From NCBI RefSeq assembly GCF_988242995.1, contig NZ_OZ547043.1: DNA of 64,000 nt; one strand, 5' to 3'. The position numbers and the translations under genes were made by a program. Shown one piece after another: positions 1,957-48,368 of the stretch. Position 1 is the first letter of the stretch; each line of letters opens with the position of its first letter. The notes below the pieces were generated by a model, which had not been told where the DNA came from, searched no databases, and saw nothing but the letters and a program-made list of their open reading frames with translations.

Positions 1957-2012
1957 GTTGACAGCGTGAAAACAGTACGGGTACTGTACTGAAGTCACTT
2001 AAGGAAACAAAC

Positions 2013-2060
2013 ATGAAACACACACCGTTTTTCTTCGCATTCTTTTTTACCTTCCCCTGA
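2013..2060 (+). CDS. pheL: pheA leader peptide (Phe-rich, 15 aa)
   Basis: ATG at 2013 encodes MKHTPFFFAFFFTFP*, 7 Phe codons; precedes attenuator hairpin and pheA. Confidence 0.85.
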   Translation: MKHTPFFFAFFFTFP

Positions 2061-2107
2061 ATGGGAGGCGTTTCGTCGTGTGAAACAGAATGCGAAGACG
2101 AACAATA

Positions 2108-2135
2108 AGGCCTCCCAAATCGGGGGGCCTTTTTT
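2108..2135 (+). terminator. pheA attenuator terminator hairpin
   Basis: aggcctccc-aaatc-ggggggcct stem-loop followed by TTTTT, between pheL and pheA. Confidence 0.7.
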
Positions 2136-2158
2136 ATTGATAACAATAAGGCAACACT

Positions 2159-10848: not shown

Positions 10849-12210
10849 TTAGCGACCAGGAAATCCCGGCGGCATCATACCCTTCATGCTTCTCATCATC
10901 TTCGCCATTCCGCCCTTCTTCATTTTCTTCATCATGCGCTGCATGTCGTCGAACTGTTTCAGAAGACGGTTAACGTCCTGTACCTGCATCCCGCAACCGG
11001 CGGCGATACGACGCTTACGTGAACCTTTGATGATTTCTGGCTTAGCGCGCTCTTTCATCGTCATTGAGTTGATGATGGCTTCCATACGCACCAGCACTTT
11101 ATCGTCCATCTGCGACTTGACGTTATCCGGGATCTGCCCCATGCCCGGCAGCTTGCCCATCAGGCTAGCCATGCCGCCCATATTTTTCATCTGGCGCAGC
11201 TGCTCAAGAAAGTCGTTGAGATCGAAGCCGTCGCCTTTTTTCAGCTTGCTGGCTAATTTCTCTGCCTGCGCGCGGTCAACTTTGCTTTCGATATCTTCGA
11301 TCAGTGACAGTACGTCGCCCATGCCGAGAATACGCGACGCGATGCGGTCAGGATGGAACGGCTCCAGCGCCTCAGTTTTCTCGCCAACACCGAGGAACTT
11401 GATCGGTTTGCCAGTGATGTGACGAATAGAGAGCGCCGCACCGCCGCGGGCATCGCCGTCCACTTTGGTCAACACTACGCCGGTAAGCGGTAACGCTTCA
11501 TTGAATGCTTTTGCCGTATTGGCCGCATCCTGACCGGTCATGGCGTCAACCACAAACAGGGTTTCAACCGGATTAATCGACGCATGGACTTGTTTGATCT
11601 CATCCATCATCGCTTCGTCAACGTGCAGACGACCAGCGGTATCCACCAGCAGCACGTCGTAGAATTTCAGTTTGGCTTCTTTCAGCGCCGCGTTAACGAT
11701 ATCTACCGGCTTCTGACCAACATCAGAAGGGAAGAAATCAACGCCCACCTGCTCTGCCAGCGTCTCAAGCTGTTTGATTGCCGCCGGGCGATAAACGTCG
11801 GCGGAAACCACCAGCACTTTCTTCTTGTGCTTCTCGCGCAGGAACTTACCGAGTTTACCAACGCTGGTTGTTTTACCGGCACCTTGCAGGCCCGCCATCA
11901 GCACGACCGCAGGCGGTTGCGCAGCCAGGTTCAGGGTCTGGTTCTCTTCGCCCATCGCCGCAACCAGTTCGTTACGGACGATTTTGACGAACTCCTGCCC
12001 CGGCGTCAGGCTCTTATTAACTTCATGACCAACCGCTTTCTCTTTTACGCGATTGATAAACTCACGCACTACCGGCAGAGCGACATCCGCCTCCAGCAGC
12101 GCCATGCGCACTTCGCGCAGCGTATCTTTTACGTTGTCTTCAGTGAGGCGTCCACGGCCACTGATATTGCGCAGCGTGCGCGACAAACGATCGGTTAAAT
12201 TATCAAACAT
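10849..12210 (-). CDS. ffh: Signal recognition particle protein Ffh
   Basis: 453 aa ORF; GTPase motifs GLQGAGKTT and DTAGR; Met-rich C-terminal M domain. Confidence 0.97.
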   Translation of the reverse strand: MFDNLTDRLSRTLRNISGRGRLTEDNVKDTLREVRMALLEADVALPVVREFINRVKEKAVGHEVNKSLTPGQEFVKIVRNELVAAMGEENQTLNLAAQPPAVVLMAGLQGAGKTTSVGKLGKFLREKHKKKVLVVSADVYRPAAIKQLETLAEQVGVDFFPSDVGQKPVDIVNAALKEAKLKFYDVLLVDTAGRLHVDEAMMDEIKQVHASINPVETLFVVDAMTGQDAANTAKAFNEALPLTGVVLTKVDGDARGGAALSIRHITGKPIKFLGVGEKTEALEPFHPDRIASRILGMGDVLSLIEDIESKVDRAQAEKLASKLKKGDGFDLNDFLEQLRQMKNMGGMASLMGKLPGMGQIPDNVKSQMDDKVLVRMEAIINSMTMKERAKPEIIKGSRKRRIAAGCGMQVQDVNRLLKQFDDMQRMMKKMKKGGMAKMMRSMKGMMPPGFPGR

Positions 12211-19309: not shown

Positions 19310-19792
19310 ATGACGAAGAAAAAAGCACATAAACCTGGTTCAGCGACCATCGCGCTTAACAAGCGCGCCCGGCACGAATACTTTATCGAAGAAGAGTTCG
19401 AAGCGGGACTTGCCCTGCAAGGCTGGGAGGTTAAATCCCTGCGCGCAGGAAAAGCCAATATCAGCGACAGCTACGTCCTTCTACGTGATGGAGAAGCATT
19501 TCTGTTTGGCGCTAACATCACGCCAATGGCTGTGGCCTCCACGCATGTGGTGTGCGATCCTACCCGTACCCGCAAGTTACTTCTCAACCAGCGCGAACTG
19601 GACTCATTGTACGGTCGCGTCAATCGAGAAGGCTATACCGTAGTGGCGCTCTCCCTGTACTGGAAAAATGCCTGGTGCAAAGTGAAAATCGGCGTCGCCA
19701 AAGGTAAGAAACAGCACGATAAACGTTCAGATATCAAAGAACGCGAATGGCAGGTGGATAAAGCGCGTATCATGAAAAACGCCCACCGTTAA
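19310..19792 (+). CDS. smpB: SsrA-binding protein SmpB
   Basis: 160 aa [37 protein letters not shown]... Confidence 0.97.
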
Positions 19793-20006: not shown

Positions 20007-20369
20007 GGGGCTGATTCTGGATTCGACGGGATTTGCGAAACCCAAGGTGCATGCCGAGGGGCGGTTGGCCTCGTAAAAAGCCGCAAAAAATAGTCGCAAA
20101 CGACGAAAACTACGCTTTAGCAGCTTAATAACCTGCTTAGAGCCCTCTCTCCCTAGCCTCCGCTCTTAGGACGGGGATCAAGAGAGGTCAAACCCAAAAG
20201 AGATCGCGTGGAAGCCCTGCCTGGGGTTGAAGCGTTAAAACTTAATCAGGCTAGTTTGTTAGTGGCGTGTCCGTCCGCAGCTGGCAAGCGAATGTAAAGA
20301 CTGACTAAGCATGTAGTACCGAGGATGTAGGAATTTCGGACGCGGGTTCAACTCCCGCCAGCTCCACCA
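20007..20369 (+). ncRNA. ssrA: tmRNA (transfer-messenger RNA)
   Basis: Begins ggggctgattctggattcgacggg, contains tag-peptide reading frame (…gcaaacgacgaaaactacgctttagcagcttaa), ends …gggttcaactcccgccagctccacca. Confidence 0.97.
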
Positions 20370-20402
20370 CTTGCTCTTCCGGATACGTCCGGAGAAATCC
20401 TG

Positions 20403-20437
20403 AAAGCCCGCATGGCGCAAGCCCTGTGGGCTTTTTT
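20403..20437 (+). terminator. Probable ssrA terminator
   Basis: aaagccc…gggcttt inverted repeat followed by T-run just 3' of ssrA. Confidence 0.5.
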
Positions 20438-20480
20438 GTGTCTACCGTTGTCCGAGGATATCCAGCTGAGTCCAGTGATT

Positions 20481-20534
20481 ATTGGTATACGTTTAGGTAT
20501 ACGGTAAGATGTATACCTAAATGCGTATACCAAT
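20481..20534. repeat. Imperfect 54-bp palindrome of GGTATACGTTTAGGTATAC motifs upstream of int (candidate Int arm-type / operator sites)
   Basis: attggtatacgtttaggtatac … gtatacctaaatgcgtataccaat; same motif recurs at 32027-32049 near attR. Confidence 0.55.
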
Positions 20535-20553
20535 TCATGAAGGAACGGCCAAA

Positions 20554-21753
20554 GTGGCAAGAACGACACGTCCCCTGACCAACACTGAAGTTCTGCGCGC
20601 TAAAGCGTTAGAAAAGGATCTAACGTTGCATGATGGCGATGGCCTTTTTCTGCTCGTTAAAACGAACGGTAAGAAATTATGGCGTTTCCGCTACCAAAAG
20701 CCAGTAACAAAACAGCGGACCATGATTAGTTTAGGAACCTTCCCTGCACTATCCTTGGCTGAAATCAGAAATGTGCGAGCTAAGTATCTTTCCTTGTTAG
20801 CCAAGGGGATCGATCCACAAACACACAATGAACAAGTCACACAACAACAACAAATTGCAGTAGAAAGTATTTTTTCAAACGTTGCTAAAAATTGGTTTGC
20901 CATTAAACGCAATAGCGTTACACCTGATTATGCAAAGGATATATGGCGATCCTTAGAGAAGGACATTTTCCCTGCTATCGGAGAGATTCCTGTTCAGGAA
21001 ATAAAAGCACGTATATTAATTGAAGCCCTAGAACCAATTAAGGCCCGCGGTGCACTCGAGACTGTTCGTCGTTTGGTGCAACGTATTAACGAAATTATGA
21101 TCTACGCTGTCAATACCGGATTAATTGAGGCTAATCCTGCGTCAGGTATTGGCATGGCTTTTGATAAACCCAAAAAGCAAAATTTGCCAACGCTGCGGCC
21201 AGAAGAATTACCTAAACTGATGCATTCTCTAGTAATGTCAAACCTGTCTATTCCTACTCGTTGTCTGATCGAATGGCAACTACTGACACTCGTTCGCCCT
21301 TCAGAAGCCTCTGGCGCCCGCTGGGATGAGATCGATTTAGAATCCAAACTTTGGAGAATTCCTGCTGAAAGGATGAAAGCAAAGCGCGAACATATAGTTC
21401 CTTTATCATCTCAAGCTTTAATTATTCTTGAAGTAATGAAACCCATAAGTGCTCATCGTGAACATATATTTCCTAGCAGGAATAACCCTCAAGAACCGAT
21501 GAATAGCCAAACAGCAAATGCAGCATTAAAACGCATAGGGTACGGAGGAAAGTTAGTTGCACATGGACTCCGTTCTATTGCCAGCACTGCATTAAATGAA
21601 GCCGAATTTAATTCTGACATTATTGAATCAGCTCTTGCACATGTTGATAAAAATGAGGTGAGAAGAGCATATAACCGCTCCACTTATCTTGATAAACGTA
21701 AAGAGATGATGGCTTGGTGGGGAAATTTTATATATAAAAATAATTCATTATAA
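20554..21753 (+). CDS. int: Tyrosine recombinase, P4-type integrase
   Basis: Start chosen at GTG after aggaa RBS giving 399 aa (…ARTTRPLTNTEVLRAKA…), typical of P4-family integrases; ORF track starts at 20521; C-terminal catalytic region (HGLRS…, …Y). Confidence 0.88.
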   Translation: MARTTRPLTNTEVLRAKALEKDLTLHDGDGLFLLVKTNGKKLWRFRYQKPVTKQRTMISLGTFPALSLAEIRNVRAKYLSLLAKGIDPQTHNEQVTQQQQIAVESIFSNVAKNWFAIKRNSVTPDYAKDIWRSLEKDIFPAIGEIPVQEIKARILIEALEPIKARGALETVRRLVQRINEIMIYAVNTGLIEANPASGIGMAFDKPKKQNLPTLRPEELPKLMHSLVMSNLSIPTRCLIEWQLLTLVRPSEASGARWDEIDLESKLWRIPAERMKAKREHIVPLSSQALIILEVMKPISAHREHIFPSRNNPQEPMNSQTANAALKRIGYGGKLVAHGLRSIASTALNEAEFNSDIIESALAHVDKNEVRRAYNRSTYLDKRKEMMAWWGNFIYKNNSL

Positions 21754-21764
21754 AAGGTATTACA

Positions 21765-22799
21765 ATGAATATTGATTCTATAAAACTTCATTTACAAAAT
21801 TTTTTCACAAATAATCCAACTGTTCTTATCGGTTCTGGCCTCTCTCTCGGTGAGGGGATTCCAGGTATGAAAACATTGGGAGAACATCTTAATACAACTA
21901 TCCCCAAATTAGTAAGCGGGGATCTTATAAGAGAATGGGGTATCATAAGTTCCAAACTAAATAATGGTATGGGACTTGAAGATGCCATGGCATTTCTTAA
22001 AGATGAAAGTGAACTTATCCCATTAATTATTCAGCACACCGCAGATCTTATTTTAAAGCATGAAAATACTGTAATATGCTCTGTAATCAATGGAGAAAAA
22101 AATCTAGCATTTACATCTTTATTGAATCACTTAACTTTTAATCAAAATGAATTGATAATTATAACTCCAAACTATGATAGACTAATTGAAATAGCATGTG
22201 AAATTGCTGGTCTAGAAATTTCAACAGGATTTATCAATAGTTATCATTGTATAAATAATCCTGAAGTTGAGTTAGATAAATTCAAAATCACCCACTCTAT
22301 CAAAACCACACGAGGTAAATCTACAGTTCAAATTAGAACTAAAAAACACGTTAAAATATTTAAACCTCATGGTAGTCTTGATTGGTTCAAGGCTGACGAT
22401 AAAATTATCAGGACCAGCTTTCAAAATAAACATAAAAGATTAATTATTACACCAGGTACAAGTAAATTCAGAGCTGGATATCAGCAGCCTTTTGATTGGC
22501 ATAGAGAAAAAGCAAACCATTATATCAAAAGAGCAAAATCACTATTAATTATTGGCTATGGGTTTAATGATGAGCAGTTAGAAGTACATTTGAAATCAAA
22601 AATACGTGAAAAAATACCTGTTTTATTAATGACATATGAATTGACATCAAACGCTCAAAAAATATGTGATGATAATCCTTCTATAACATATGTTATTGCA
22701 GAAGGAAACAATTCCATCGTTTGTATCGATGGCATTAAATATAAAATCGAAAAGAATATTTGGTCTTTAAATGAGTTTGTTAAAGAGGTACTTAAATAA
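21765..22799 (+). CDS. SIR2-like (NAD-binding/NADase family) protein, putative defence effector
   Basis: 344 aa; Rossmann-like VLIGSGLS, TPNYD and KPHGSL motifs as in SIR2/DUF4020 defence proteins; AT-rich; 11 bp after int stop. Confidence 0.75.
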   Translation: MNIDSIKLHLQNFFTNNPTVLIGSGLSLGEGIPGMKTLGEHLNTTIPKLVSGDLIREWGIISSKLNNGMGLEDAMAFLKDESELIPLIIQHTADLILKHENTVICSVINGEKNLAFTSLLNHLTFNQNELIIITPNYDRLIEIACEIAGLEISTGFINSYHCINNPEVELDKFKITHSIKTTRGKSTVQIRTKKHVKIFKPHGSLDWFKADDKIIRTSFQNKHKRLIITPGTSKFRAGYQQPFDWHREKANHYIKRAKSLLIIGYGFNDEQLEVHLKSKIREKIPVLLMTYELTSNAQKICDDNPSITYVIAEGNNSIVCIDGIKYKIEKNIWSLNEFVKEVLK

Positions 22800-24583
22800 T
22801 GGAATATTACGTCATTAACACTGATGAAACATGCTTTATCGGACGAATCGCAAATGTTGATACCGATCGTGCTATTATCATTTCAGAGTCTCCAGAGATC
22901 ATACAAGAACTAACCGTTTTTGACTTGGTTGCTATTGAAGGCAATACCCCCACAGAGTTTCTTGTTGGTATCATTGAAAAAGTAAAACGCTCTATTGGAG
23001 AAATACAAACTATTGATACTGAAGAAAATATTGAAGATGACAGTGAAAAAGATTTCGATAATATCTTCCAAACTTATTCTATCGATCATGATATTCTTCA
23101 AGTAGCTCTTATCGGCACTTTCTGGGAGGTTTACGGGGATAGAAGGAAAATTTTTAAAAGAGGAGCACAATATTTTCCAAAAGTTGAAAAACAAGCATTT
23201 CTTATAAAAAAAGACAGTCTTGAGAAATTAATGTCGGCAGTCGACAATGATACTCCTGATGAGCTAAAACTCATACTAGGCAACTATGGAAATACCAATT
23301 CACGAGCAGTTGCAAATGGGGATAAATTATTTCAGAGACATGCTGCCCTATTGGGGAGTACTGGTTCAGGTAAAAGTTGGACAGTTGCGTCATTACTAGA
23401 ACAAGCCTCAAAATTAAAATACAACAATATTGTACTTTATGATCTTCATGGTGAATACAAAACTTTATCTGATACACATAATAAATCGAACCGCCCGAGC
23501 ATAGCCGATTATTTTAAAATTGCAAGCCCAGGAAATATCGACGATGTAAATAGTATTTATGTACCTCATTGGTTATTAAACAAAGAAGAAATGCTATCAC
23601 TGTTGTTAGATAGAAGCGATAGCAATGCACCTAATCAGGCAGCAAGATTTAGCTACCACGTGAGAGAGCTAAAAAAAGAATACATCACACACAACAGATT
23701 AATACACTTAGAAGATTGTTTGACTGTTGATGCTCCAATACCCTACTCTATCGAGGATCTTATTAGCAGACTGCACGATGATGATCAAGGTATGAAAAAA
23801 GGTACTAATAATAAAGAAATAAAAGGTGATTGGAATGGAAAACTAACAAGATTCATAAGCAGGTTAAGAACAAAAGTAGACGACAAGAGGAACTGTTTTC
23901 TATTCTCAAATAAACCAGAACACAACCAATATGATTGGTTGGAGAAATACGCTTGTAAAATTTTAAAATCAGATAGCACAGATCATGGCATTAAAATAAT
24001 TGATTTTTCTGAAGTTCCTTCAGATATTATGCCTATTGTTATTGGTGTATTGACCAGATTTTTATACAACGTCCAATTTTGGAGATGTGAGACCGAACGA
24101 ACCCCTATAGCATTCGTTTGTGACGAAGCTCATATTTATTTACCCGCTAAGGATACCACTGAGGCTGAAACAAAAATATCCTTATCAATATTCGAGAAAA
24201 TTGCTAAAGAAGGCAGAAAGTACGGAGTATCTTTATTAGTCGTCAGCCAAAGACCTTCTGATGTTAGCAGAACAATACTAAGTCAATGTAATAACATAAT
24301 TTCTCTCAGACTAAGTAATTATAGAGATCAACAGGTAGTTAGTCGGTTAATGCCTGATTCATTGAGTTCATTAACATCCATACTACCAATTCTTGATACT
24401 GGGGAAGCAATAGTTCTTGGCGACTCTGTTCTATTACCAGCTAGAATAAAATTGAATCCACCAACACTCAAGCCCGATAGCGCAACCAGAGCTTTTTGGA
24501 ATGAGTGGGGGGCAATTGAAGCAAAAGAAATCTCTATAGCAAATGCTGTTGAATCACTCAGGAGACAATCTCGTAATCGCTAA
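22799..24583 (+). CDS. HerA-like P-loop ATPase (FtsK/HerA superfamily), partner of the SIR2 protein
   Basis: 594 aa; Walker A GSTGSGKS, Walker B FVCDEAH; start overlaps SIR2 stop (TAATG). Confidence 0.75.
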   Translation: MEYYVINTDETCFIGRIANVDTDRAIIISESPEIIQELTVFDLVAIEGNTPTEFLVGIIEKVKRSIGEIQTIDTEENIEDDSEKDFDNIFQTYSIDHDILQVALIGTFWEVYGDRRKIFKRGAQYFPKVEKQAFLIKKDSLEKLMSAVDNDTPDELKLILGNYGNTNSRAVANGDKLFQRHAALLGSTGSGKSWTVASLLEQASKLKYNNIVLYDLHGEYKTLSDTHNKSNRPSIADYFKIASPGNIDDVNSIYVPHWLLNKEEMLSLLLDRSDSNAPNQAARFSYHVRELKKEYITHNRLIHLEDCLTVDAPIPYSIEDLISRLHDDDQGMKKGTNNKEIKGDWNGKLTRFISRLRTKVDDKRNCFLFSNKPEHNQYDWLEKYACKILKSDSTDHGIKIIDFSEVPSDIMPIVIGVLTRFLYNVQFWRCETERTPIAFVCDEAHIYLPAKDTTEAETKISLSIFEKIAKEGRKYGVSLLVVSQRPSDVSRTILSQCNNIISLRLSNYRDQQVVSRLMPDSLSSLTSILPILDTGEAIVLGDSVLLPARIKLNPPTLKPDSATRAFWNEWGAIEAKEISIANAVESLRRQSRNR

Positions 24584-24608
24584 TAAAAATATTATCTAGC
24601 AACGCGCA

Positions 24609-24627
24609 GTGCTTTCCCCGCCTCGCC
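24609..24627 (-). other. P2/P4-type cos site (19-nt cohesive end sequence)
   Basis: gtgctttccccgcctcgcc is the exact reverse complement of the recalled P2/P4 cohesive end GGCGAGGCGGGGAAAGCAC. Confidence 0.75.
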
Positions 24628-24727
24628 CGCCCGCTTTGCGGGGCGGTTTCAGTGCAGTTGCACTGACACGCTCAGGCCGCGCCGGGAATGGCGCGGTCTG
24701 CAGAAAATGAGGCAGGAAAACGCATGC

Positions 24728-24762
24728 AAAGCCATGCACCTTATCGATGCATGGCTTTTTTC
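24728..24762 (+). terminator. Rho-independent terminator between cargo operon and psu
   Basis: gccatgca-ccttatcga-tgcatggc hairpin followed by TTTTTT. Confidence 0.6.
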
Positions 24763-24791
24763 AGTAAAAACGGGCGGATTTTCGGGGAATT

Positions 24792-25364
24792 TTACACAGA
24801 CTGATGTGATGCCAGTTGCGCACTTTTACGCGAAAAAATCATGTTCTGCGCAGGAGTGAATTTTTCACGGCTGTCATCCACCGAAGCCGCGTCAGGCCTG
24901 AATCCGATGGTCGTTAAAATGTCGCTATCCTGTGCGGAATAATTAATTTTTTCACCCTTCGCAAGCCAGGACTGGAGGGCTTCACGCAGGGCATCTGTGG
25001 CACGCTGTATGGCACAGTTTCGGGCAATGGCCGTCAGCTCACTGTAGCCCATCAGCTCCGGTGCCAGTGCCGCCGCCAGTGCTGTGCCGTGCTGCTGCAT
25101 AAAATCATTCAGCCGGTCGCGGATGCTGATGTGCTGAACGGCTTCATGCGAACGAATATAACGACCGGCGGCCTGATTCACCTGCCATTTTCTGACTTCG
25201 ATAATATTGCGTAATTCGTCCAGGCGACTGACGTTTCTGCCTTCTCCTGACAGAAGCCGCAGGTATTCCTGTTCGGCCGCTGCCAGCTCATTTTTGCGTT
25301 GCAGCCATGCTGCTTTGTTATTCTGACAGGTGTCAAAGGCCTGCTGTAAGGCTGTGCTTTCCAT
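24792..25364 (-). CDS. psu: Polarity suppression protein Psu (P4-like)
   Basis: 190 aa ORF MESTALQQAFDTCQNNKAAWLQRK…, recalled as P4 Psu; length matches. Confidence 0.85.
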   Translation of the reverse strand: MESTALQQAFDTCQNNKAAWLQRKNELAAAEQEYLRLLSGEGRNVSRLDELRNIIEVRKWQVNQAAGRYIRSHEAVQHISIRDRLNDFMQQHGTALAAALAPELMGYSELTAIARNCAIQRATDALREALQSWLAKGEKINYSAQDSDILTTIGFRPDAASVDDSREKFTPAQNMIFSRKSAQLASHQSV

Positions 25365-25437
25365 CGTTATCTCTTTCTCATCATGCTGAAGAATAAAAAT
25401 ACGGTGTGCGGCGACGGCCGGTGTTAACCGGCAGCCC

Positions 25438-25938
25438 TCATTCCAGACGCAGCGAATATGATTGTGTTTTTAACCGTACTGGCGGCAGTTCCTGTTTTTC
25501 ATGCAGGCGTTCTGCCAGTTCGTCCGGCGTGACCGGGCGGACAATGAAACGGTTGATGGTCTGAAGCGTTTTAAACACCAGACCACAGCCCGGATCCGTG
25601 CACACATAAAAACGCTCGGTGACTTCCTGAGACAGACGCCGCGATGTTCTTGACAGTGCAAGGCCTTTACATCTCCGACAACAATATCCGGTAACAAGCA
25701 TTCTTTTCGGCCGTTTCATACTGCCGGAGGCTGACGTCAGTGAATCGCGGTATCTCTGTTTGCCTGAAATGTATTCCATTCCTGAATCTTTACAGTCAGA
25801 GAAAAAGCTTTCACTCGCTTCAAATGTCGCAGAGCAATAAATATTCCGGCACTGTGCAATCATTATCTTGGTGCCATCGTCCATGAAATGTGCGCGACGG
25901 GTGTGAGCAACATGTCCACACGACGGGCAGTAAATCAT
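25438..25938 (-). CDS. delta: Late-gene transcriptional activator Delta (Ogr/Delta zinc-finger family)
   Basis: 166 aa; CPSCGH…C…C zinc-finger at N-terminus and a second Cys cluster; same size as P4 Delta. Confidence 0.85.
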   Translation of the reverse strand: MIYCPSCGHVAHTRRAHFMDDGTKIMIAQCRNIYCSATFEASESFFSDCKDSGMEYISGKQRYRDSLTSASGSMKRPKRMLVTGYCCRRCKGLALSRTSRRLSQEVTERFYVCTDPGCGLVFKTLQTINRFIVRPVTPDELAERLHEKQELPPVRLKTQSYSLRLE

Positions 25939-26669
25939 GACAGCAGCCCTCTGGCCTTAAGCTCTGCTCCCTGCTGGTCTATTTTGTCCTGCCACACCTT
26001 GCGCTGTGCCGGTGTGCCTGCCACCTCATAATCCATGTGCGGGAGTGTTGCCGCTGACAGTCCGGCCAGCCGGAGAACCGGCTCGCCGGTGAGGCTGATT
26101 TGCATCTGTTTTATTTTCTGTTCCAGCGATGATTTCACCTGCTGCATGACAGCCTTTTCCGGCGCGACGTAGCCCTGATGGCCGGTGGTGTTGGCGAGCG
26201 GATTTTCCTGTACCAGGATGCTCAGATGCATTGCCCGGACAAGCGCCTCACAGGTTTCATTCAGGGCGTGTTCCAGCTCATGCTCTGCATACAGACTCAG
26301 CAGGTGATGATGTGCCTTCCGGTAGGCGGTGGCCGTGCTGTCACACGCCCCTTTCAGGCGTTCACATTCAAAATTCAGCACCACGGCCAGATTGTCATAT
26401 TCCTGTACCAGCTCCCGGCGTGCCACGCGCTCAATGTGGCGCTGTTTCAGCTCATCGCTCAGGACACCACCGGCTGCACGAAAGGCCGTGCGCCAGTCGT
26501 CAGCGTCGTTTCCGTCGGCCTGCGTCAGCGCATTTTTTTCCTGCTCTGCCCGTTCAATGGCCGTGATGGTCTCATCCATCAGGCGGGCGTTCTCAAGATG
26601 AGCGGCTCTGGCCTTTTCCAGTTGTGCCAGCGCGGGTTGCAGATATTCAGGGATGGTGTTGTCAGACAT
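25935..26669 (-). CDS. sid: Capsid size determination protein Sid (P4-like)
   Basis: Start chosen at MSDNTIPEYLQPALAQLEKAR (244 aa); ORF track extends 22 codons upstream; overlaps delta start. Confidence 0.8.
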   Translation of the reverse strand: MSDNTIPEYLQPALAQLEKARAAHLENARLMDETITAIERAEQEKNALTQADGNDADDWRTAFRAAGGVLSDELKQRHIERVARRELVQEYDNLAVVLNFECERLKGACDSTATAYRKAHHHLLSLYAEHELEHALNETCEALVRAMHLSILVQENPLANTTGHQGYVAPEKAVMQQVKSSLEQKIKQMQISLTGEPVLRLAGLSAATLPHMDYEVAGTPAQRKVWQDKIDQQGAELKARGLLS

Positions 26670-26703
26670 TTTCCGGCTCCTCGTCACTTCAGGTTGAGAA
26701 AAT

Positions 26704-26759
26704 TGTGACGTACACCGGACAACAACACGACGCATTGCAGATGTGCCAGCCCTGACACA
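26704..26759 (-). promoter_or_regulatory. Candidate Psid late promoter with two TGT-N12-ACA Delta/Ogr-type dyads
   Basis: tgt-gacgtacaccgg-aca (26704-26721) and tgt-gccagccctgac-aca (26742-26759), centres 38 bp apart, immediately upstream of sid. Confidence 0.6.
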
Positions 26760-26838
26760 GGAGACTCATCCTCAGACCGGCAAGCCAGGAAAAGGTCGCA
26801 GGAAAAACCGGCTTACTGTTTGTTTTTTTATATTTTAC

Positions 26839-26942
26839 TGTTCACCTCTGTTCACCTTAAGAAAAAAGATAAGTAATACAGTAAGTTAAAGGATGAACAA
26901 TCGCAGTAATGACTGTTCACCGTCTGTTCACCACTGTTCACC
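26839..26942. repeat. Cluster of five direct TGTTCACC octamers (P4 ori-like alpha-binding iterons)
   Basis: tgttcacc at 26839, 26849, 26914, 26925, 26935; same octamer recurs in repeats downstream of alpha. Confidence 0.7.
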
Positions 26943-27101
26943 CGCTCATGGACTTTTTGTGCTGTTTACTACTGTTTGTTTTTATTAATTCGCCGGGAAT
27001 GAATAAGAAGAAACGATTTGTATTTCACTATAAAAATTACGAATTGCTTTAAGTGGCTTTAAATGACTTTAAGTGGAGATGAACAAAAAATACACAAGCA
27101 T

Positions 27102-27119
27102 TGTAAGGCTGCCGGAACA
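27102..27119 (+). promoter_or_regulatory. Candidate Delta-dependent leftward-operon promoter element (TGT-N12-ACA)
   Basis: tgt-aaggctgccgga-aca upstream of the AlpA/Vis-like gene; an imperfect second dyad follows. Confidence 0.35.
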
Positions 27120-27221
27120 AATCCCCCCTGTTGCGTCTGCCGAAAATATTCACAAAATAAAGCGCTACCCGAAGCCGGACGGACTTATCCGGTGCTGTAT
27201 GGACATTAACGAGGTAGCCCG

Positions 27222-27488
27222 ATGCAATCTGTTTTTTCTTCCCCGTCTCCCGCCCCAGTGACGCCACTGATGCCGCTGCCGGACATCACGCAGGAGCGTT
27301 TTTTACGTCTGCCGGAAGTGATGCACCTGTGCGGCCTGTCACGCTCGACCATCTATGAACTTATCCGTAAGGGGGAATTTCCGCCGCAGGTGAGTCTTGG
27401 CGGTAAAAATGTGGCCTGGCTGCACTCTGAAGTCACCGCATGGATGGCCGGGCGCATTGCCGGACGCAAACGGGGGTACGACGCATGA
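27222..27488 (+). CDS. AlpA/Vis-family small DNA-binding protein (excisionase/regulator)
   Basis: …[52 protein letters not shown] is AlpA-like HTH; a later start at Met-17 (27270) is possible. Confidence 0.75.
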
Positions 27489-27886
27489 TGATGCCCGCTC
27501 TGCAAAAAGTCCCTTTTTCTGGCTTGCCTTTTTCCGGCATTTGCGGATATAGTTTTTCCGCTGCCGCAAAATCGGCAGCCGGGCGTGGAAACCCGAGTAT
27601 GTTATCGGCGACATATGACGCGCCATGCGTCTTTTTTTGTGTCGCAATCAACGCCACAGAGCGCCAGATTATGGTGTGGTGTGTGGTCAGTCGAGCAAAT
27701 GGCACTCCGTGCATTCTGCCCGCGTCCGCTCATTATACCGCAGAGTCAATGGTAGCTCAGGCGGGGCAGCCTCCGCGCTGGCCGGTTTCCGATAACGCCG
27801 GTATTTCCACCCCCGTCTGGGCTATCGCCATCGAGCGTGGAAACTCCGGCGATAGCGTCATTTACGCTGTTATCGGAGGTTGCCTT

Positions 27887-28084
27887 ATGGCTACGACCCT
27901 TATCCCCTCACACCCTGAATTTGTCTTTGTGTTTGCGGCTGTCCGTCGCGCAGACCGTCATCCCCGTATCTGTATGCTTCGCACCGTCGCCGGTGATGAA
28001 CGCAGCGCCCGCCGTTCCCTTGTCCGTGACTATGTGCTCTCCCTTGCTGCCCGTCTGCCGGTGGTGGAGGTGTCCCGTGCGTAA
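27887..28084 (+). CDS. Small hypothetical protein (65 aa) in satellite left operon
   Basis: ATG 7 nt after GGAGG; lies within long frame 27440-28084; overlaps next gene start. Confidence 0.35.
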
Positions 28085-28364
28085 TAAAAAAGCCCCTCAG
28101 ACCGTCTCAGCACGTCATGACGCCCGTGAACACCTCAGCATTGAGGCTTACCATAAGCTCAACCGCGCCAGCGCCGTATCCCAGTTTGTTGGGGGTGATT
28201 TGATTCACCGTGAACTCTCCGGCCTGCATCAGCTCTACATTCCGCATATTTTCAGCTACCTGAATGAAGATATTGATTTTGTGCTGAATGAGCTGAAAGC
28301 CAAAGGCCTGTGCCGCGATTTTCTCGCCCAGCAGAAAGACCGGGGAGACAGGACGCATGTTTGA
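28077..28364 (+). CDS. Hypothetical 95-aa protein, candidate P4 epsilon-like (anti-repressor) by position and size
   Basis: GTG start after ggagg; 95 aa, same size as P4 epsilon and directly upstream of a 151-aa ORF; sequence identity not verified. Confidence 0.4.
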
Positions 28365-28812
28365 TTTTCCCCAGCCCGGTGAGATTTACCGTTCTGCCGG
28401 TTTTCCCGATGTGGCCGTGGTCGGCATTCTGGAAGACGGTATTCCGTGGGAAATGCCGTACCGCTGCCCGGACATTGTCTGGAACCCGTACCGCCGTAAA
28501 TTCAGTATCCTTGTGCGTATCCTCGCTGACGGGCGCACCACAGACATCCCGCTGGGGCGTTTTCTGCGGGAATTTACCTGTGACCGTCCTGACCTGTTTA
28601 AACGCAGCCCCGTAAACCGGCATGCGGTACTGAAAGAAATGGCCGGAGACCCGGAATTACAGAAATGGCGGGAGAAATATCTGGATATTTACCCGCAGGA
28701 CCCTGTTCCGGTCAGCCGGGCGGCACCGGTGGCGCGGGAATGGCGGGAAATTCCCCGCACGGAGCCTGACCCGGAAACCACCCCGGATAACAGTTACCGC
28801 AATTATCTGTAA
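28357..28812 (+). CDS. Hypothetical protein, P4 orf151-like
   Basis: 151 aa ORF, start overlaps preceding stop (ATGTTTGA); position and length match P4 orf151. Confidence 0.55.
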   Translation: MFDFPQPGEIYRSAGFPDVAVVGILEDGIPWEMPYRCPDIVWNPYRRKFSILVRILADGRTTDIPLGRFLREFTCDRPDLFKRSPVNRHAVLKEMAGDPELQKWREKYLDIYPQDPVPVSRAAPVAREWREIPRTEPDPETTPDNSYRNYL

Positions 28813-28947
28813 TTAAAAAACGACACCCGAAAAATTAAATGTGCGTATTCGCGCAGGGATACGCACGTCTTCAGGAGACGCAGATATGCCTTATCAGTTA
28901 ATGCAACCGGCACGGAATGCAGTCATCTGTCACAGGGAGGAAAACAA

Positions 28948-29268
28948 ATGAAAACACCCTTACCGCCCGTCTTACGCGCTGCCCTTTACCGTCGCGCTGT
29001 CGCCTGTGCCTGGCTGACCGTGTGCGAACGTCAGCACCGCTACCCGCATCTCACCCTTGAGTCACTGGAGGCGGCCATCGCCGCTGAGCTGGAAGGCTTT
29101 TATCTGCGCCAGCACGGTGAGGAAAAAGGGCGTCAGATAGCCTGTGCCCTGCTGGAAGATTTAATGGAATCCGGCCCCCTGAAGGCCGCGCCGTCGCTGT
29201 CCTTTCTCGGGCTGGTTGTGATGGATGAACTCTGTGCCCGTCACATAAAAGCGCCGGTACTGCACTGA
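28948..29268 (+). CDS. Hypothetical 106-aa protein, candidate Cnr-like copy-number regulator
   Basis: 106 aa ORF immediately upstream of alpha, as for P4 cnr; assignment by position and size only. Confidence 0.4.
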
Positions 29269-29282
29269 AGGAGAACAACACC

Positions 29283-31616
29283 ATGAAAATGAACGTAACC
29301 GCCACCGTCAGCCATGCGCTCGGCCACTGGCCGCGTATTCTCCCGGCGCTGGGGATTCAGGTGCTGAAGAACCATCATCAGCCCTGTCCGGTCTGTGGCG
29401 GGAGTGACCGCTTCCGTTTTGATGACAGGGAGGGGCGCGGCACCTGGTACTGCAATCAGTGTGGTGCCGGTGACGGCCTGAAACTGGTTGAAAAGGTGTT
29501 TGGTGTCTCCCCGTCCGACGCGGCCGCAAAGGTGGCTGCCGTGACCGGCAGTCTGCCCCCGGCTGACCCGGCAGTGACGGCTGCCGCCGTTGCTGAAACA
29601 GACGCTGCCCGGAAGAACGCCGCCGCACTGGTACAAACCCTGATGGCAAAAACCCGTCCCGGAACCGGTAACGCCTACCTGACCCGCAAGGGCTTTCCCG
29701 GCCGGGAATGCCGGATGCTGACCGGCACACACAGAGCCGGTGGCGTGAGCTGGCGCGCCGGTGACCTTGTGGTGCCACTGTATGACGACAGCGGCGAACT
29801 GGTTAACCTTCAGTTAATCAGTGCTGACGGCCGTAAGCGCACCCTGAAAGGCGGACAGGTCAGGGGCACCTGTCACACCCTTGAAGGACAGAATCAGGCC
29901 GGAAAACGTCTGTGGATAGCGGAGGGATACGCGACCGCACTTACCGTGCATCACCTGACCGGTGAAACGGTGATGGTGGCGCTTTCTTCCGTGAATCTCC
30001 TTTCTCTGGCCAGCCTTGCCCGGCAGAAGCATCCGGCCTGTCAGATTGTCCTTGCTGCTGACCGTGACCTCAGCGGTGACGGCCAGAAAAAAGCCGCCGC
30101 AGCCGCAGATGCGTGTGAAGGTGTTGTTGCCCTGCCGCCGGTCTTCGGTGACTGGAATGATGCCTTCACGCAGTACGGCGGGGAAGCCACCCGTAAGGCC
30201 ATTTATGATGCCATCCGGCCACCGGCTGAAAGCCCGTTCGACACCATGAGCGAAGCGGAGTTTTCCGCCATGAGTACCAGCGAAAAGGCCATGCGTATCT
30301 ATGAGCATTACGGCGAGGCGCTCGCGGTCGATGCCAACGGCCAGCTTCTGTCCCGCTATGAAAATGGTGTCTGGAAGGTGCTGCCGCCACAGGACTTTGC
30401 CCGGGATGTGGCCGGGCTGTTTCAGCGTCTGCGAGCGCCGTTCTCCTCCGGGAAGGTGGCCTCCGTGGTGGACACCCTGAAGCTGATTATTCCGCAGCAG
30501 GAAGCCCCCTCCCGCCGCCTGATTGGCTTTCGTAACGGCGTGCTCGACACGCAGAACGGCACGTTCCACCCGCACAGTCCGTCACACTGGATGCGCACCC
30601 TGTGCGATGTGGATTTCACCCCGCCGGTGGACGGTGAAACGCTGGAAACCCACGCCCCCGCCTTCTGGCGCTGGCTTGACCGTGCCGCCGGTGGCCGTGC
30701 GGAAAAACGCGACGTGATTCTGGCTGCACTGTTTATGGTGCTGGCAAACCGCTACGACTGGCAGCTCTTTCTGGAGGTGACCGGTCCCGGCGGCAGCGGC
30801 AAAAGTATCATGGCCGAAATCGCCACCCTGCTGGCCGGGGAGGATAACGCCACGTCGGCCACCATCGAGACGCTGGAATCCCCGCGTGAACGTGCCGCGT
30901 TAACTGGCTTCTCACTGATACGCCTGCCGGATCAGGAAAAATGGAGCGGCGACGGTGCCGGACTCAAGGCCATCACCGGCGGCGATGCGGTGTCCGTTGA
31001 CCCGAAATACCGGGATGCGTACTCCACGCACATCCCGGCGGTGATTCTGGCCGTGAACAATAACCCGATGCGCTTCACCGACCGCAGCGGCGGCGTGTCA
31101 CGCCGGCGGGTGATTATTCACTTCCCGGAACAGATAGCCCCGCAGGAGCGCGACCCGCAGCTTAAGGACAAAATCACCCGCGAGCTGGCGGTCATCGTGC
31201 GTCACCTGATGCAGAAGTTCAGCGACCCGATGCTCGCCCGGTCACTGCTTCAGTCCCAGCAGAACTCAGACGAGGCACTGAACATCAAACGGGATGCCGA
31301 CCCGACGTTTGATTTTATCGGCTATCTGGAAACCCTGCCGCAGACCAGCGGCATGTATATGGGGAACGCCAGTATCATCCCGCGTAATTACCGTAAATAC
31401 CTCTATCACGCCTATCTGGCCTACATGGAGGCAAACGGCTACCGGAATGTACTCAGTCTGAAAATGTTCGGACTGGGGCTGCCGGTGATGCTGAAAGAAT
31501 ACGGGCTGAATTACGAGAAGCGCCATACCAAACAGGGGATACAGACCAACCTGACGCTGAAAGAAGAAAGCTACGGCGACTGGCTGCCAAAATGTGACGA
31601 CCCTGCAACAGCCTGA
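29283..31616 (+). CDS. alpha: Alpha primase-helicase replication protein (P4-like)
   Basis: 777 aa, same length as P4 alpha; zinc-binding primase motif CPVCGGSDRFRF…YCNQCG; Walker A GPGGSGKS. Confidence 0.9.
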   Translation: MKMNVTATVSHALGHWPRILPALGIQVLKNHHQPCPVCGGSDRFRFDDREGRGTWYCNQCGAGDGLKLVEKVFGVSPSDAAAKVAAVTGSLPPADPAVTAAAVAETDAARKNAAALVQTLMAKTRPGTGNAYLTRKGFPGRECRMLTGTHRAGGVSWRAGDLVVPLYDDSGELVNLQLISADGRKRTLKGGQVRGTCHTLEGQNQAGKRLWIAEGYATALTVHHLTGETVMVALSSVNLLSLASLARQKHPACQIVLAADRDLSGDGQKKAAAAADACEGVVALPPVFGDWNDAFTQYGGEATRKAIYDAIRPPAESPFDTMSEAEFSAMSTSEKAMRIYEHYGEALAVDANGQLLSRYENGVWKVLPPQDFARDVAGLFQRLRAPFSSGKVASVVDTLKLIIPQQEAPSRRLIGFRNGVLDTQNGTFHPHSPSHWMRTLCDVDFTPPVDGETLETHAPAFWRWLDRAAGGRAEKRDVILAALFMVLANRYDWQLFLEVTGPGGSGKSIMAEIATLLAGEDNATSATIETLESPRERAALTGFSLIRLPDQEKWSGDGAGLKAITGGDAVSVDPKYRDAYSTHIPAVILAVNNNPMRFTDRSGGVSRRRVIIHFPEQIAPQERDPQLKDKITRELAVIVRHLMQKFSDPMLARSLLQSQQNSDEALNIKRDADPTFDFIGYLETLPQTSGMYMGNASIIPRNYRKYLYHAYLAYMEANGYRNVLSLKMFGLGLPVMLKEYGLNYEKRHTKQGIQTNLTLKEESYGDWLPKCDDPATA

Positions 31617-31623
31617 CCCACCT

Positions 31624-31648
31624 GACCGGCATCTGCCGGTCTTTTTTT
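31624..31648 (+). terminator. Rho-independent terminator after alpha
   Basis: gaccggca/tgccggtc stem followed by TTTTTTT. Confidence 0.6.
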
Positions 31649-31666
31649 ATCCCTGAATCCCCCGAA

Positions 31667-31962
31667 GGTGAACAATCCAGTGTTCACCCTTCACCGTATA
31701 TTCACCCGTTATCACACTGAAATTAAAAGAGAAAAACGAAAGGTGAACAGTGTGAACAATCAAATCAAAAAAAACTTTTTTTCTTCCTGTGTGATTTTCA
31801 GCACGGGAAATTAATCCCCTGCACAAGTCACACCGGCAGAATGCCGGAGGTGAAGAATCGAATGTTCACCCTTCACCCATTATTCACCACCTATCACTCT
31901 GAAATAAAAGGAGAAAACAGAAAGGTGAACAGTGTGAACAGTTCTTTCGAAAAAAAATTTTT
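31667..31962. repeat. crr-like region: two ~115-bp direct repeats carrying TGTTCACC / GGTGAACA iterons
   Basis: Repeat units at ~31667-31790 and ~31849-31962 (ggtgaa.aatc..atgttcacccttcacc…aaaggtgaacagtgtgaaca…aaaaaa.ttttttt), period ~182 bp. Confidence 0.75.
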
Positions 31963-32026
31963 TTCCTGTACGATATAGCATCAATCCAAGTAAAAATGCG
32001 CTTTCATTTCACATTAACTTACAGCC

Positions 32027-32049
32027 ATTGGTATACGATTAGGTATACG
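32027..32049. repeat. Distal copy of GGTATACG(A/T)TTAGGTATACG motif near attR
   Basis: attggtatacgattaggtatacg, direct repeat of 20481-20503. Confidence 0.55.
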
Positions 32050-32106
32050 CACAAAAAATGAATTAAACAAAATCATTAAAAATCAAAGCAATACAATATT
32101 TATTCA

Positions 32107-32124
32107 AACTCCGCCAGCTCCACC
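32107..32124 (+). repeat. attR: imperfect direct repeat of ssrA 3' end
   Basis: actccgccagctccacca versus ssrA end actcccgccagctccacca (20351-20369). Confidence 0.75.
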
Positions 32125-32285
32125 AATCATGATTGAACGGTGCAAGGACAACACCAACAAAAACAGGAAGTTATAAGTCTCAGCAAGACACCGACCAGAC
32201 GGTGAGGAGACAAAAAAGGATACGCAAAGGAGCCGCGGCTCCTGGTGATATGAAAGCCCACAGATGTGGGCTTTTTCGTTGATGG

Positions 32286-48202: not shown

Positions 48203-48368
48203 CCCATGCCGGAGGCGACGCTGCGCGTCTTGTCCGGCCCACGAAAATGTAGGTCGGATAAGGCGTTTACGCCGCATCCGACATTCGGCGCACCATGCCG
48301 GAGGTGACGCTTTGCGTCTTGTCCGGCCTACGAGAATCCAGGTCGGGTAAGGCGGAGCCGCTCTCCGG
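48203..48368. repeat. REP/BIME-type palindromic repeats between gabT and gabP
   Basis: Two near-identical units gccggaggcgacgctgcgcgtcttgtccggcc…aggtcggataaggcg / gccggaggtgacgctttgcgtcttgtccggcc…aggtcgggtaaggcg. Confidence 0.8.

What the first reader, a model, noticed from the sequence alone, without database searches (positions are those of the whole stretch)
21765..24583. SIR2-like + HerA-like two-gene cargo in the satellite hotspot between int and cos
Two AT-rich genes, clearly lower in GC than the flanking satellite genes, sit exactly where P4 carries its dispensable gop/beta/cII genes. The first has SIR2-type motifs (VLIGSGLS, TPNYD, KPHGSL); the second has HerA/FtsK-type Walker A (GSTGSGKS) and Walker B (FVCDEAH). 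The SIR2 stop overlaps the HerA start (TAATG), and SIR2 begins only 11 bp after int, suggesting co-transcription. This is the most plausible anti-phage system in the window. It most likely belongs to the already described SIR2-HerA defence family, so novelty would lie in sequence divergence or regulation, not in the pairing itself.
Basis: partly seen in the sequence, partly recalled or inferred. Interest (0 to 1): 0.8.

Follow-up and report, generated by a model that had tools for sequence, protein, structure and literature searches.

The report
SIR2-HerA defence pair on P4 satellite
The two AT-rich genes are an intact SIR2-HerA anti-phage system in the known cargo slot of a P4-like phage satellite, and a 2022 survey of these slots already lists this HerA protein, so the finding is correct but ordinary.

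Summary
Two co-oriented ORFs, 21765-22799 (344 aa) and 22799-24583 (594 aa), overlap by one base. They start 11 nt after the int stop, have 30-36% GC against a 49-61% backbone, and lie between int and the P2/P4 cos site of an 11.8-kb P4-like satellite inserted in ssrA.

Both proteins match PADLOC SIR2 and HerA models over their full length (1e-124 and 9e-210). The predicted folds are closest to subunits of solved SIR2-HerA and DUF4297-HerA complexes. The catalytic Asn and His and the Walker A and B residues are intact and invariant in the family. The pairing is kept in all four other loci examined, from three phyla and on other mobile elements.

The HerA is 100% identical to WP_021516369. Rousset et al. 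2022 list that protein as "SIR2_2 + DUF87" cargo of the P4 hotspot and name SIR2+HerA as a known system there.

The most likely mechanism, by homology, is a SIR2 ring mounted on a HerA hexamer that destroys NAD+ on infection and so aborts it.

The open points are small. This ~345-aa SIR2 lineage is only 14-20% identical to the characterised ones, I found no experimental test of it, and co-transcription with int is unproven. Verdict: already known, low interest.

The parts
21765..22799 (+). SIR2-family NADase effector gene (344 aa). Rossmann GSGLS at 21831-21845; TPNYD with catalytic Asn136 at 22164-22178; KPHGSL with catalytic His202 at 22362-22379; GYGFND at 22554-22571.
   Evidence: PADLOC SIR2 PDLC04082, 1e-124, residues 1-343 of a 345-position model. 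Pfam SIR2_2, 9.6e-11. AlphaFold model with pLDDT 88.7, whose top 37 PDB matches are all SIR2 subunits of SIR2-HerA complexes. Family profile against PDB: 8yhx 2.6e-18, 8j4u 1.2e-13, 8w9l 1.6e-7. The motifs are invariant in 32 homologues.
22799..24583 (+). HerA-family ATPase/translocase gene (594 aa). N-terminal beta-barrel up to about residue 135; Walker A GSTGSGKS at 23354-23377 (Lys192); Walker B FVCDEAH at 24113-24133 (Asp442, Glu443); SQRPSD at 24245-24262; conserved C-terminal helix, residues 577-589.
   Evidence: PADLOC HerA PDLC04105, 9.3e-210, residues 5-592. Pfam DUF87, 1.2e-29. PDB sequence hits: 9c1m 1.4e-67, 8xau 3e-58, 8wiv 4.7e-56, 8j4u_M 2.3e-33. Full-length fold matches with TM about 0.7. 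Invariant columns in 20 homologues. 100% identical to WP_021516369.1.
20521..21753 (+). Satellite tyrosine integrase (context). It ends 11 nt before SIR2, has 41% GC, and is not homologous to P4 int at the DNA level.
   Evidence: ORF. Annotated as an integrase in the near-identical locus L001. No blastn match to P4, but 75% identity as one block with SIR2-HerA to a Pantoea satellite.
24609..24627 (-). P2/P4-type cos cohesive-end sequence (reverse complement of GGCGAGGCGGGGAAAGCAC). It marks the distal edge of the cargo slot.
   Evidence: Exact match found by script, and P4 homology begins at 24628, which equals the P4 right end at 11624. The cos sequence itself comes from my own knowledge of P2/P4.
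24792..25364 (-). psu (polarity suppression protein), the other flank of the hotspot as defined by Rousset et al.
   Evidence: ORF. Annotation of L001. 97.9% identity to P4.
20007..20369 (+). ssrA (tmRNA) gene. Its 3' end (20347-20369) is attL of the satellite.
   Evidence: ARAGORN. Rfam tmRNA, 295.8 bits. Direct repeat D2.
32103..32125 (+). attR, an imperfect copy (87%) of the ssrA 3' end. The element from 20370 to 32125 is about 11.76 kb.
   Evidence: Direct repeat D2, with start-to-start spacing of 11756. The crr-like 122-nt repeats at 31662-31965 lie just inside it.

Best explanation
This is a two-gene SIR2-HerA (Gao 'SIR2+HerA' / Nezha type) abortive-infection system. It is carried as cargo in the psu-int/cos hotspot of a P4-like satellite integrated at ssrA. 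By homology, HerA forms a hexameric ATPase ring and the SIR2 protein forms a double ring (12-14 subunits) on HerA's N-terminal beta-barrel face. SIR2 alone is auto-inhibited. Assembly, plus an infection cue that is still unknown for the whole family, opens the NAD+ pocket. Asn136 and His202 then hydrolyse NAD+ to ADP-ribose and nicotinamide, which stops the infected cell and the phage. HerA's ATPase and DNA-translocase activity probably supplies the sensing or DNA-handling step. What is shown here: gene integrity, family membership, intact catalytic residues, conserved pairing and the genomic setting. What is inferred from characterised homologues: oligomeric assembly, NADase activity, abortive infection and phage protection.
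For: Both proteins give full-length, very strong hits to PADLOC SIR2 and HerA models, and to Pfam SIR2_2 and DUF87. The SIR2 model (pLDDT 88.7) has as its top 37 PDB matches only SIR2 subunits of the E. coli, S. aureus and Paenibacillus SIR2-HerA complexes (TM 0.49-0.64). KomC, ThsA and DSR2 come next at TM 0.40-0.45. The family profile ranks the same three SIR2s first. In the phmmer alignment, Asn136 aligns with SaSir2 N226 and His202 with H287, which are the catalytic residues named in PMC11514289. G23, G25, T134, N136, Y137, D138, K200, P201, H202 and G203 are invariant in 32 homologues of 36-75% identity. In HerA, Walker A (G186-S193) and Walker B (D442, E443) are invariant in 20 homologues. 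The gene pair, abutting or overlapping, recurs in Pantoea (P4-like satellite at ssrA), Vibrio (Tn7-like element), Sorangium and Paeniclostridium. The assembly-activated NADase mechanism comes from PMC11514289 and PMC11472057. The hotspot setting, and SIR2+HerA named as a known P4 cargo, come from PMC9122126.
Against: I found no experiment on this ~345-aa SIR2 lineage. Rousset et al. did not list a SIR2+HerA pair among their cloned systems (file 3), and no paper text cites these accessions. Identity to characterised proteins is low: SIR2 14-20% and HerA 17-28% in structural alignments. Scores fall far below NCBIfam's curated equivalog cut-offs: 38 against 500, 289 against 850, and 185 against 800. 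HerA's first 171 residues, the expected effector-docking part, match no solved HerA by sequence. Published work also reports nuclease and ATP-hydrolysis activities in SIR2-HerA complexes, so NAD+ depletion may not be the only effector activity. The trigger is unknown.
Confidence: 0.88

Rival explanations
1. The assembly is the same, but killing relies mainly on DNA cleavage and/or ATP consumption rather than NAD+ depletion. That would make it behave more like the DUF4297-HerA nuclease systems, whose HerA is the closest solved relative.
For: HerA's best PDB matches are HerAs partnered with DUF4297 nucleases: 9c1m 1.4e-67, 8xau 3.1e-58, 8ziq 1.3e-56. NCBIfam HerA_antiphage_2 scores higher than HerA_antiphage. 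PMC11472057 reports ATP-inhibited nuclease activity in Paenibacillus and E. coli SIR2-HerA complexes.
Against: The partner here is a SIR2, with no nuclease domain detected by Pfam or PADLOC. The NAD+-site residues are invariant across the family, which argues that selection acts on NADase chemistry. [quoted passage not shown]
Confidence: 0.08
2. The genes are silent or decaying cargo and give no protection in this host, for example because they have no promoter of their own.
For: No sigma-70-like site was found on the + strand between 20300 and 22130. The system is rare, present in 1 of 5426 complete E. coli genomes.
Against: Both ORFs are full length against the family profiles and keep every invariant residue. 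HerA is 100% and SIR2 99% identical to the copies in an independent strain. The same scan also found no + strand site upstream of int, so it is insensitive. [quoted passage not shown]
Confidence: 0.03
3. The pair serves the satellite's own life cycle (DNA processing or packaging, or manipulation of the helper phage) rather than defence, by analogy with HerA-NurA end resection.
For: HerA is related to archaeal repair HerA (4d2i 1.8e-25). The genes sit next to cos and int.
Against: The slot is dispensable and holds unrelated cargo in other P4-like elements (PMC9122126). The same pair occurs on Tn7-like and other elements and in chromosomal contexts without any P4 genes. No NurA-like partner is present.
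Confidence: 0.01

Closest known systems
Paenibacillus sp. 453MF SIR2-HerA (PsSIR2-HerA; PDB 8W9L, 8WIV, 8WLD; PMC11472057)
   Same: A two-gene operon with overlapping ORFs. The SIR2 is of similar size (381 aa against 344 aa). Among SIR2-partnered HerAs this one is the closest (4.7e-56; 26-28% identity, TM about 0.69). The SIR2 fold matches at TM 0.50-0.64.
   Different: The SIR2 sequences are barely related. No phmmer hit appears at E<=0.01, the profile E-value is 1.6e-7, and structural alignments give 12-16% identity. PsHerA is about 100 aa longer (696 aa). The host and the mobile element differ.
E. coli NCTC 11129 SIR2-HerA / 'Nezha' (WP_021577683/WP_021577682; PDB 8J4U, 8SU9 and others)
   Same: Same species, same domain pair and same predicted 12:6-type architecture. 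The SIR2 fold matches at TM about 0.6.
   Different: That SIR2 is 415 aa and has a C-terminal extension reported as unique to it, which the 344-aa protein has no room for. Identity is 15-20% for SIR2 and 18-19% for HerA. NCBIfam equivalog scores are far below cut-off.
Staphylococcus aureus SaSir2-HerA (PDB 8YHX/8YHO; PMC11514289)
   Same: It is the best sequence match for the SIR2 (1.1e-10 with the single sequence, 2.6e-18 with the profile). Catalytic N226 and H287 align with N136 and H202.
   Different: SaSir2 is 428 aa. SaHerA is the most distant of the defence HerAs (1.8e-24, 17% identity).
DUF4297-HerA (PDB 9C1M, 8XAU, 8ZIQ; PMC11291478; bioRxiv 10.1101/2024.10.24.620088)
   Same: These are the closest solved HerA motors (1.4e-67 to 1.3e-56; 24-28% identity, TM about 0.7). 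The logic is the same: an effector double ring on a HerA hexamer, activated by assembly.
   Different: The effector there is a Cap4-like DUF4297 nuclease, not a SIR2. The N-terminal 171 residues of this HerA have no sequence match to those HerAs.
P4 hotspot cargo catalogued by Rousset et al. 2022 (PMC9122126, list of P4 loci in supplementary file 2)
   Same: Identical HerA protein accession (WP_021516369), paired with a SIR2_2 protein and listed between psu and int of E. coli P4-like satellites. The main text names SIR2+HerA among the known systems in this hotspot.
   Different: Essentially nothing. The SIR2 alleles listed there have other accession numbers, and I did not compare their sequences with the window's SIR2. 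The entry was catalogued, not tested experimentally.

Membership tests
SIR2-HerA (Gao_Her_SIR / Nezha) anti-phage system | A SIR2-domain protein with a Rossmann NAD+ site and catalytic Asn and His | tested here: met
   Pfam SIR2_2, 9.6e-11. PADLOC SIR2, 1e-124, full length. N136 and H202 align to SaSir2 N226 and H287. These residues are invariant in 32 homologues.
SIR2-HerA (Gao_Her_SIR / Nezha) anti-phage system | A HerA-clade ASCE ATPase with an N-terminal beta-barrel and a RecA-like core carrying Walker A and B | tested here: met
   Pfam DUF87, 1.2e-29. PADLOC HerA, 9.3e-210. Full-length Foldseek matches to defence HerAs. The model has beta strands through residues 13-135. Walker residues are invariant.
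SIR2-HerA (Gao_Her_SIR / Nezha) anti-phage system | The two genes are adjacent and co-oriented in one operon, and the pairing is conserved among homologues | tested here: met
   One-base overlap. In 4 of 4 other loci examined (Pantoea, Vibrio, Sorangium, Paeniclostridium) the SIR2 gene is followed directly by a 579-594-aa DUF87 gene, overlapping it or starting at the next base.
SIR2-HerA (Gao_Her_SIR / Nezha) anti-phage system | The SIR2 belongs to the HerA-associated SIR2 clade rather than to ThsA, DSR, pAgo or Avs SIR2s | tested here: met
   The top 37 fold hits and the top 3 profile hits are the three solved HerA-associated SIR2s. KomC, FAM118B, ThsA and DSR2 rank clearly lower.
SIR2-HerA (Gao_Her_SIR / Nezha) anti-phage system | SIR2 (12-14 subunits) and HerA (6 subunits) form a supramolecular complex that activates the NADase | not testable with these tools
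   No multimer prediction or biochemistry was available. The only indirect hint is the conserved N-terminal helix of SIR2 (K7 and Q11 invariant, L10 and F14 nearly so). It corresponds in position to the alpha1 helix that docks between HerA barrels in PsSIR2-HerA.
SIR2-HerA (Gao_Her_SIR / Nezha) anti-phage system | Protection against phage with NAD+ depletion | not testable with these tools
   This needs an experiment. I found no published test of this lineage.
NCBIfam equivalogs SIR2_antiphage (NF042942), HerA_antiphage (NF042943), HerA_antiphage_2 (NF042944) | Whole-protein score at or above the curated cut-off | tested here: not met
   38 against 500, 185 against 800, and 289 against 850 bits. 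The pair is therefore not an equivalog of those curated subfamilies. It is a separate lineage within the wider family.
P4-like satellite psu-int / cos defence hotspot (Rousset et al. 2022) | Cargo lies between int and psu, next to cos, in an element with P4 core genes | tested here: met
   The order is int, SIR2, HerA, cos, psu, delta, sid ... alpha. The backbone is 97.9% identical to P4. P4 immunity RNAs C4 and c4-a1b1 are present. attL and attR were found. The definition is in PMC9122126.

The most novel reading that the evidence does not exclude
The ~345-aa SIR2 and ~590-aa HerA lineage seen here, for which I found no biochemical study, may be more than a diverged copy of the studied systems. 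It combines a SIR2 only 14-20% identical to the characterised ones with a HerA motor closer to DUF4297-partnered HerAs, and its N-terminal docking domain matches no solved HerA by sequence. It could therefore differ in stoichiometry, auto-inhibition or trigger. Its 11-nt spacing from int, conserved as a 24-nt spacing in the Pantoea satellite, could tie its expression to the satellite's integrase promoter. The int-SIR2-HerA segment also appears to move between satellites as one 4.4-kb block.
Probability: 0.15. Interest if true: 0.4.

Novelty: already known. Interest (0 to 1): 0.18.

Why it matters
It matters little beyond correct annotation. The locus is a clean example of a mobile defence cassette in the P4 hotspot, and RefSeq labels it only 'SIR2 family protein' and 'ATP-binding protein'. 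A modest value is that this lineage is widespread (more than 2000 SIR2 and at least 8000 HerA database relatives) and, as far as I could find, untested. Its HerA sits between the SIR2-partnered and DUF4297-partnered motors, so it would be a useful comparison point for how one HerA chassis adapts to different effectors.

Tried and rejected
1. tblastn of the SIR2 against 50,697 phage records gave no match. Plasmid relatives reach at most 36% identity.
2. HerA residues 1-171 searched against PDB sequences at E<=10 gave only a chance hit. The docking domain therefore cannot be assigned to a SIR2-type or a DUF4297-type by sequence.
3. NCBIfam equivalog membership was rejected because scores are far below the cut-offs.
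4. The promoter and terminator scan found no + strand promoter before 22131 and no terminator between int and SIR2. It found none upstream of int either, so it cannot settle co-transcription.
5. I looked for a third gene. A 253-aa ORF follows HerA in Paeniclostridium, but nothing equivalent exists here or in the Vibrio, Sorangium or Pantoea loci. I treat this as a two-gene system.
6. I checked the low-GC stretch beyond attR (37-43 kb) for further defence genes. It holds a YpjA-like autotransporter, YpjC and a 750-aa ORF, none of which hits PADLOC.
7. A literature search for these accession numbers and for a known SIR2-HerA trigger found nothing specific.
Full report
**Observation.** The window holds two co-oriented ORFs exactly where stated: 21765-22799 (344 aa) and 22799-24583 (594 aa). 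The first stop and the second start share one base, within TAAATAATGG. The upstream integrase ORF ends at 21753, leaving 11 nt before the first ATG, with AAGG upstream of it. GC is 30.4% and 35.7% for the two genes. It is 41% for int, 49-61% for psu, delta, sid and alpha, and 48.8% for the whole window. An open frame of 595 codons in DNA this AT-rich is far beyond chance, since 200 shuffles gave a mean of 88 and a maximum of 150.

**Setting.** smpB (19310-19792) and the tmRNA gene ssrA (20007-20369) precede the integrase. The last 23 nt of ssrA recur at 32103-32125 (87% identity), which delimits an 11.76-kb element.
- From 24628 to 31963 the element is 97.9% identical to phage satellite P4, from P4's right cos end through psu, delta, sid, the immunity region, alpha and crr.
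- Rfam finds P4's C4 antisense RNA, its a1b1 targets and isrK at 27547-27832.
- The reverse complement of the 19-nt P2/P4 cohesive end lies at 24609-24627, immediately before the P4 homology begins (the cos sequence is from my own knowledge).
- The two genes therefore occupy the position that gop, beta and cII occupy in P4. This is the psu-int hotspot next to cos defined by Rousset et al. 2022 (PMC9122126).

**Identity of the proteins.**
- *Family models.* PADLOC-DB gives full-length hits: SIR2 model PDLC04082 at 1e-124 (residues 1-343 of 345 positions) and HerA model PDLC04105 at 9.3e-210 (residues 5-592). Pfam gives SIR2_2 (9.6e-11) and DUF87, the HerA central domain (1.2e-29).
- *SIR2 fold.* An AlphaFold model built on 32 homologues has pLDDT 88.7. 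Its first 37 Foldseek matches in the PDB are all SIR2 subunits of the E. coli, S. aureus and Paenibacillus SIR2-HerA complexes (TM 0.49-0.64, 12-20% identity). KomC, ThsA and DSR2 follow at TM 0.40-0.45. A profile of the family ranks the same three proteins first, at 2.6e-18, 1.2e-13 and 1.6e-7.
- *SIR2 catalytic residues.* In the alignment to SaSir2, Asn136 and His202 fall on N226 and H287, the residues named as catalytic in PMC11514289. These two residues, the GxG of the Rossmann loop and the GYGFND motif are invariant in 32 homologues sharing 36-75% identity with the query.
- *HerA.* The model (pLDDT 75) has an N-terminal beta-barrel, a RecA-like core and a conserved C-terminal helix at 577-589. 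It aligns over its full length with defence HerAs. Walker A (G186-S193, Lys192), Walker B (Asp442, Glu443) and SQRP (483-486) are invariant in 20 homologues.

**Conserved pairing.** More than 2000 database proteins match the SIR2 at E<=1e-5, and the best 120 are mostly 341-351 aa long. At least 8000 proteins match the HerA. In all four other loci I opened, the SIR2 gene is followed directly by a 579-594-aa DUF87 gene that overlaps it or starts at the next base:
- Pantoea cypripedii, again in a P4-like satellite at ssrA;
- Vibrio parahaemolyticus, next to Tn7-like tnsA, tniB and tniQ genes;
- Sorangium, next to IS21/Mu-type transposase genes;
- Paeniclostridium sordellii, next to VapE- and Mor-like genes.

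This is the behaviour of a self-contained mobile defence cassette.

**Mechanism (inferred from homologues).** In the three studied systems the SIR2 protein forms a two-layer ring of 12 subunits, or 14 in Paenibacillus. This ring sits on the N-terminal barrel face of a HerA hexamer. SIR2 alone is auto-inhibited, and complex formation opens the NAD+ pocket so that NAD+ is hydrolysed to ADPR and nicotinamide. HerA's ATPase and helicase activities are stimulated in the complex (PMC11514289, PMC11472057). I expect the same here.
- Intact catalytic residues and the conserved N-terminal helix of SIR2 support this. That helix spans residues 3-13, with K7 and Q11 invariant. It corresponds in position to the alpha1 helix that docks between HerA barrels in the Paenibacillus complex.
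- The infection signal is not known for any member, as far as I could find.
- Nuclease and ATP-consuming activities reported for these complexes remain a minority alternative for the killing step.

**How it differs from characterised members.** This is a separate lineage.
- Identity to the solved proteins is 12-20% for SIR2 and 17-28% for HerA.
- Scores are far below NCBIfam's equivalog cut-offs.
- The SIR2 is 37-84 aa shorter than the three solved ones (381, 415 and 428 aa).
- HerA's nearest solved relatives are HerAs that partner the DUF4297 nuclease (9c1m, 8xau, 8ziq), then Paenibacillus HerA. The E. coli 'Nezha' and S. aureus HerAs are much further away.
- The similarity is concentrated in the C-terminal motor. 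The first 171 residues match no solved HerA by sequence.
- This pattern suggests a shared motor with an effector-specific docking domain, but I did not test that with a phylogeny.

**Prior knowledge.** The pair is present in RefSeq as WP_021516368 (SIR2 family protein) and WP_021516369 (ATP-binding protein) in E. coli EC21GDE043. That is the only one of 5426 complete E. coli genomes with a near-identical copy. The window's HerA is 100% identical to that copy and its SIR2 is 99% identical.

Rousset et al. 2022 list WP_021516369 four times in their supplementary list of P4 hotspot loci (file 2, stored truncated), and the two passages shown pair it with a SIR2_2 protein as 'SIR2_2 + DUF87'. Their main text names SIR2+HerA among the known systems found in this hotspot. 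Their table of cloned systems holds a single-gene SIR2 and no HerA entry, so they do not appear to have tested the pair. No paper text cites these accessions. The finding is therefore correct but already catalogued.

**Regulation.** The 11-nt gap after int (24 nt in the Pantoea satellite) and the lack of a predicted terminator between the genes fit read-through from int. The consensus promoter scan found no + strand site upstream of int either, so it cannot decide the matter. In the non-P4 contexts the pair has its own upstream intergenic region of 125 to about 850 bp.

**Verdict.** This is an intact, previously catalogued SIR2-HerA defence cassette in the P4 hotspot. Interest is low. The only open points are the untested biochemistry of this lineage and its possible transcriptional coupling to int.

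Noticed in passing
window 20370-24627 versus 24628-31963; L008 6611-11002: The satellite is a mosaic with its junction at cos. The part from cos onward is 97.9% identical to P4. The int-SIR2-HerA block has no blastn match to P4, yet it is 75% identical as one 4.4-kb block to a Pantoea cypripedii satellite whose backbone is far more diverged (69-86%, patchy). int (41% GC) seems to travel with the cargo rather than with the P4 core.
   Followed up: partly
window 32126-43000: Unlike strain EC21GDE043, where glaH follows about 1.2 kb after alpha (L001), this window has about 11 kb between attR and the glaH-like ORF at 43060. It holds a 1565-aa YpjA/Ag43-like autotransporter (32286-36983, -), YpjC (37790-39184, -), a tRNA (39944-40016, -) and a 750-aa ORF with no NCBIfam or PADLOC hit (40576-42828, +) in 32-40% GC DNA.
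   Followed up: partly
window 22994-23083 (HerA residues 66-95): There is an acidic loop of low model confidence (IGEIQTIDTEENIEDDSEKDFDNIF...) inside the N-terminal barrel of HerA. It is poorly conserved among homologues (no majority residue in most columns of A2) and its role is unknown.
   Followed up: no
window 24527-24565 (HerA residues 577-589): A conserved C-terminal helix (E585 and L587 nearly invariant; R588, Q590 and R592 invariant) follows a disordered linker at residues 555-573. It may act like the C-terminal extension reported to stabilise the split-spiral PsHerA hexamer.
   Followed up: no
window 27547-27832: Rfam detects the P4 immunity RNA elements c4-a1b1 (27547-27599), isrK (27560-27637) and the C4 antisense RNA (27745-27832). 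The satellite therefore keeps P4-type RNA-based immunity.
   Followed up: no
L003 8803-9564 and L004 3601-4362: In Paeniclostridium sordellii a 253-aa ORF with no Pfam hit follows HerA directly. It could be a lineage-specific third component or just a neighbour. It is absent from the window.
   Followed up: no
window 2012-2137 and 48252-48328: Rfam finds a Phe leader (pheL) and a naRNA4 nucleoid-associated RNA element. Both are ordinary E. coli chromosomal features unrelated to the finding.
   Followed up: no
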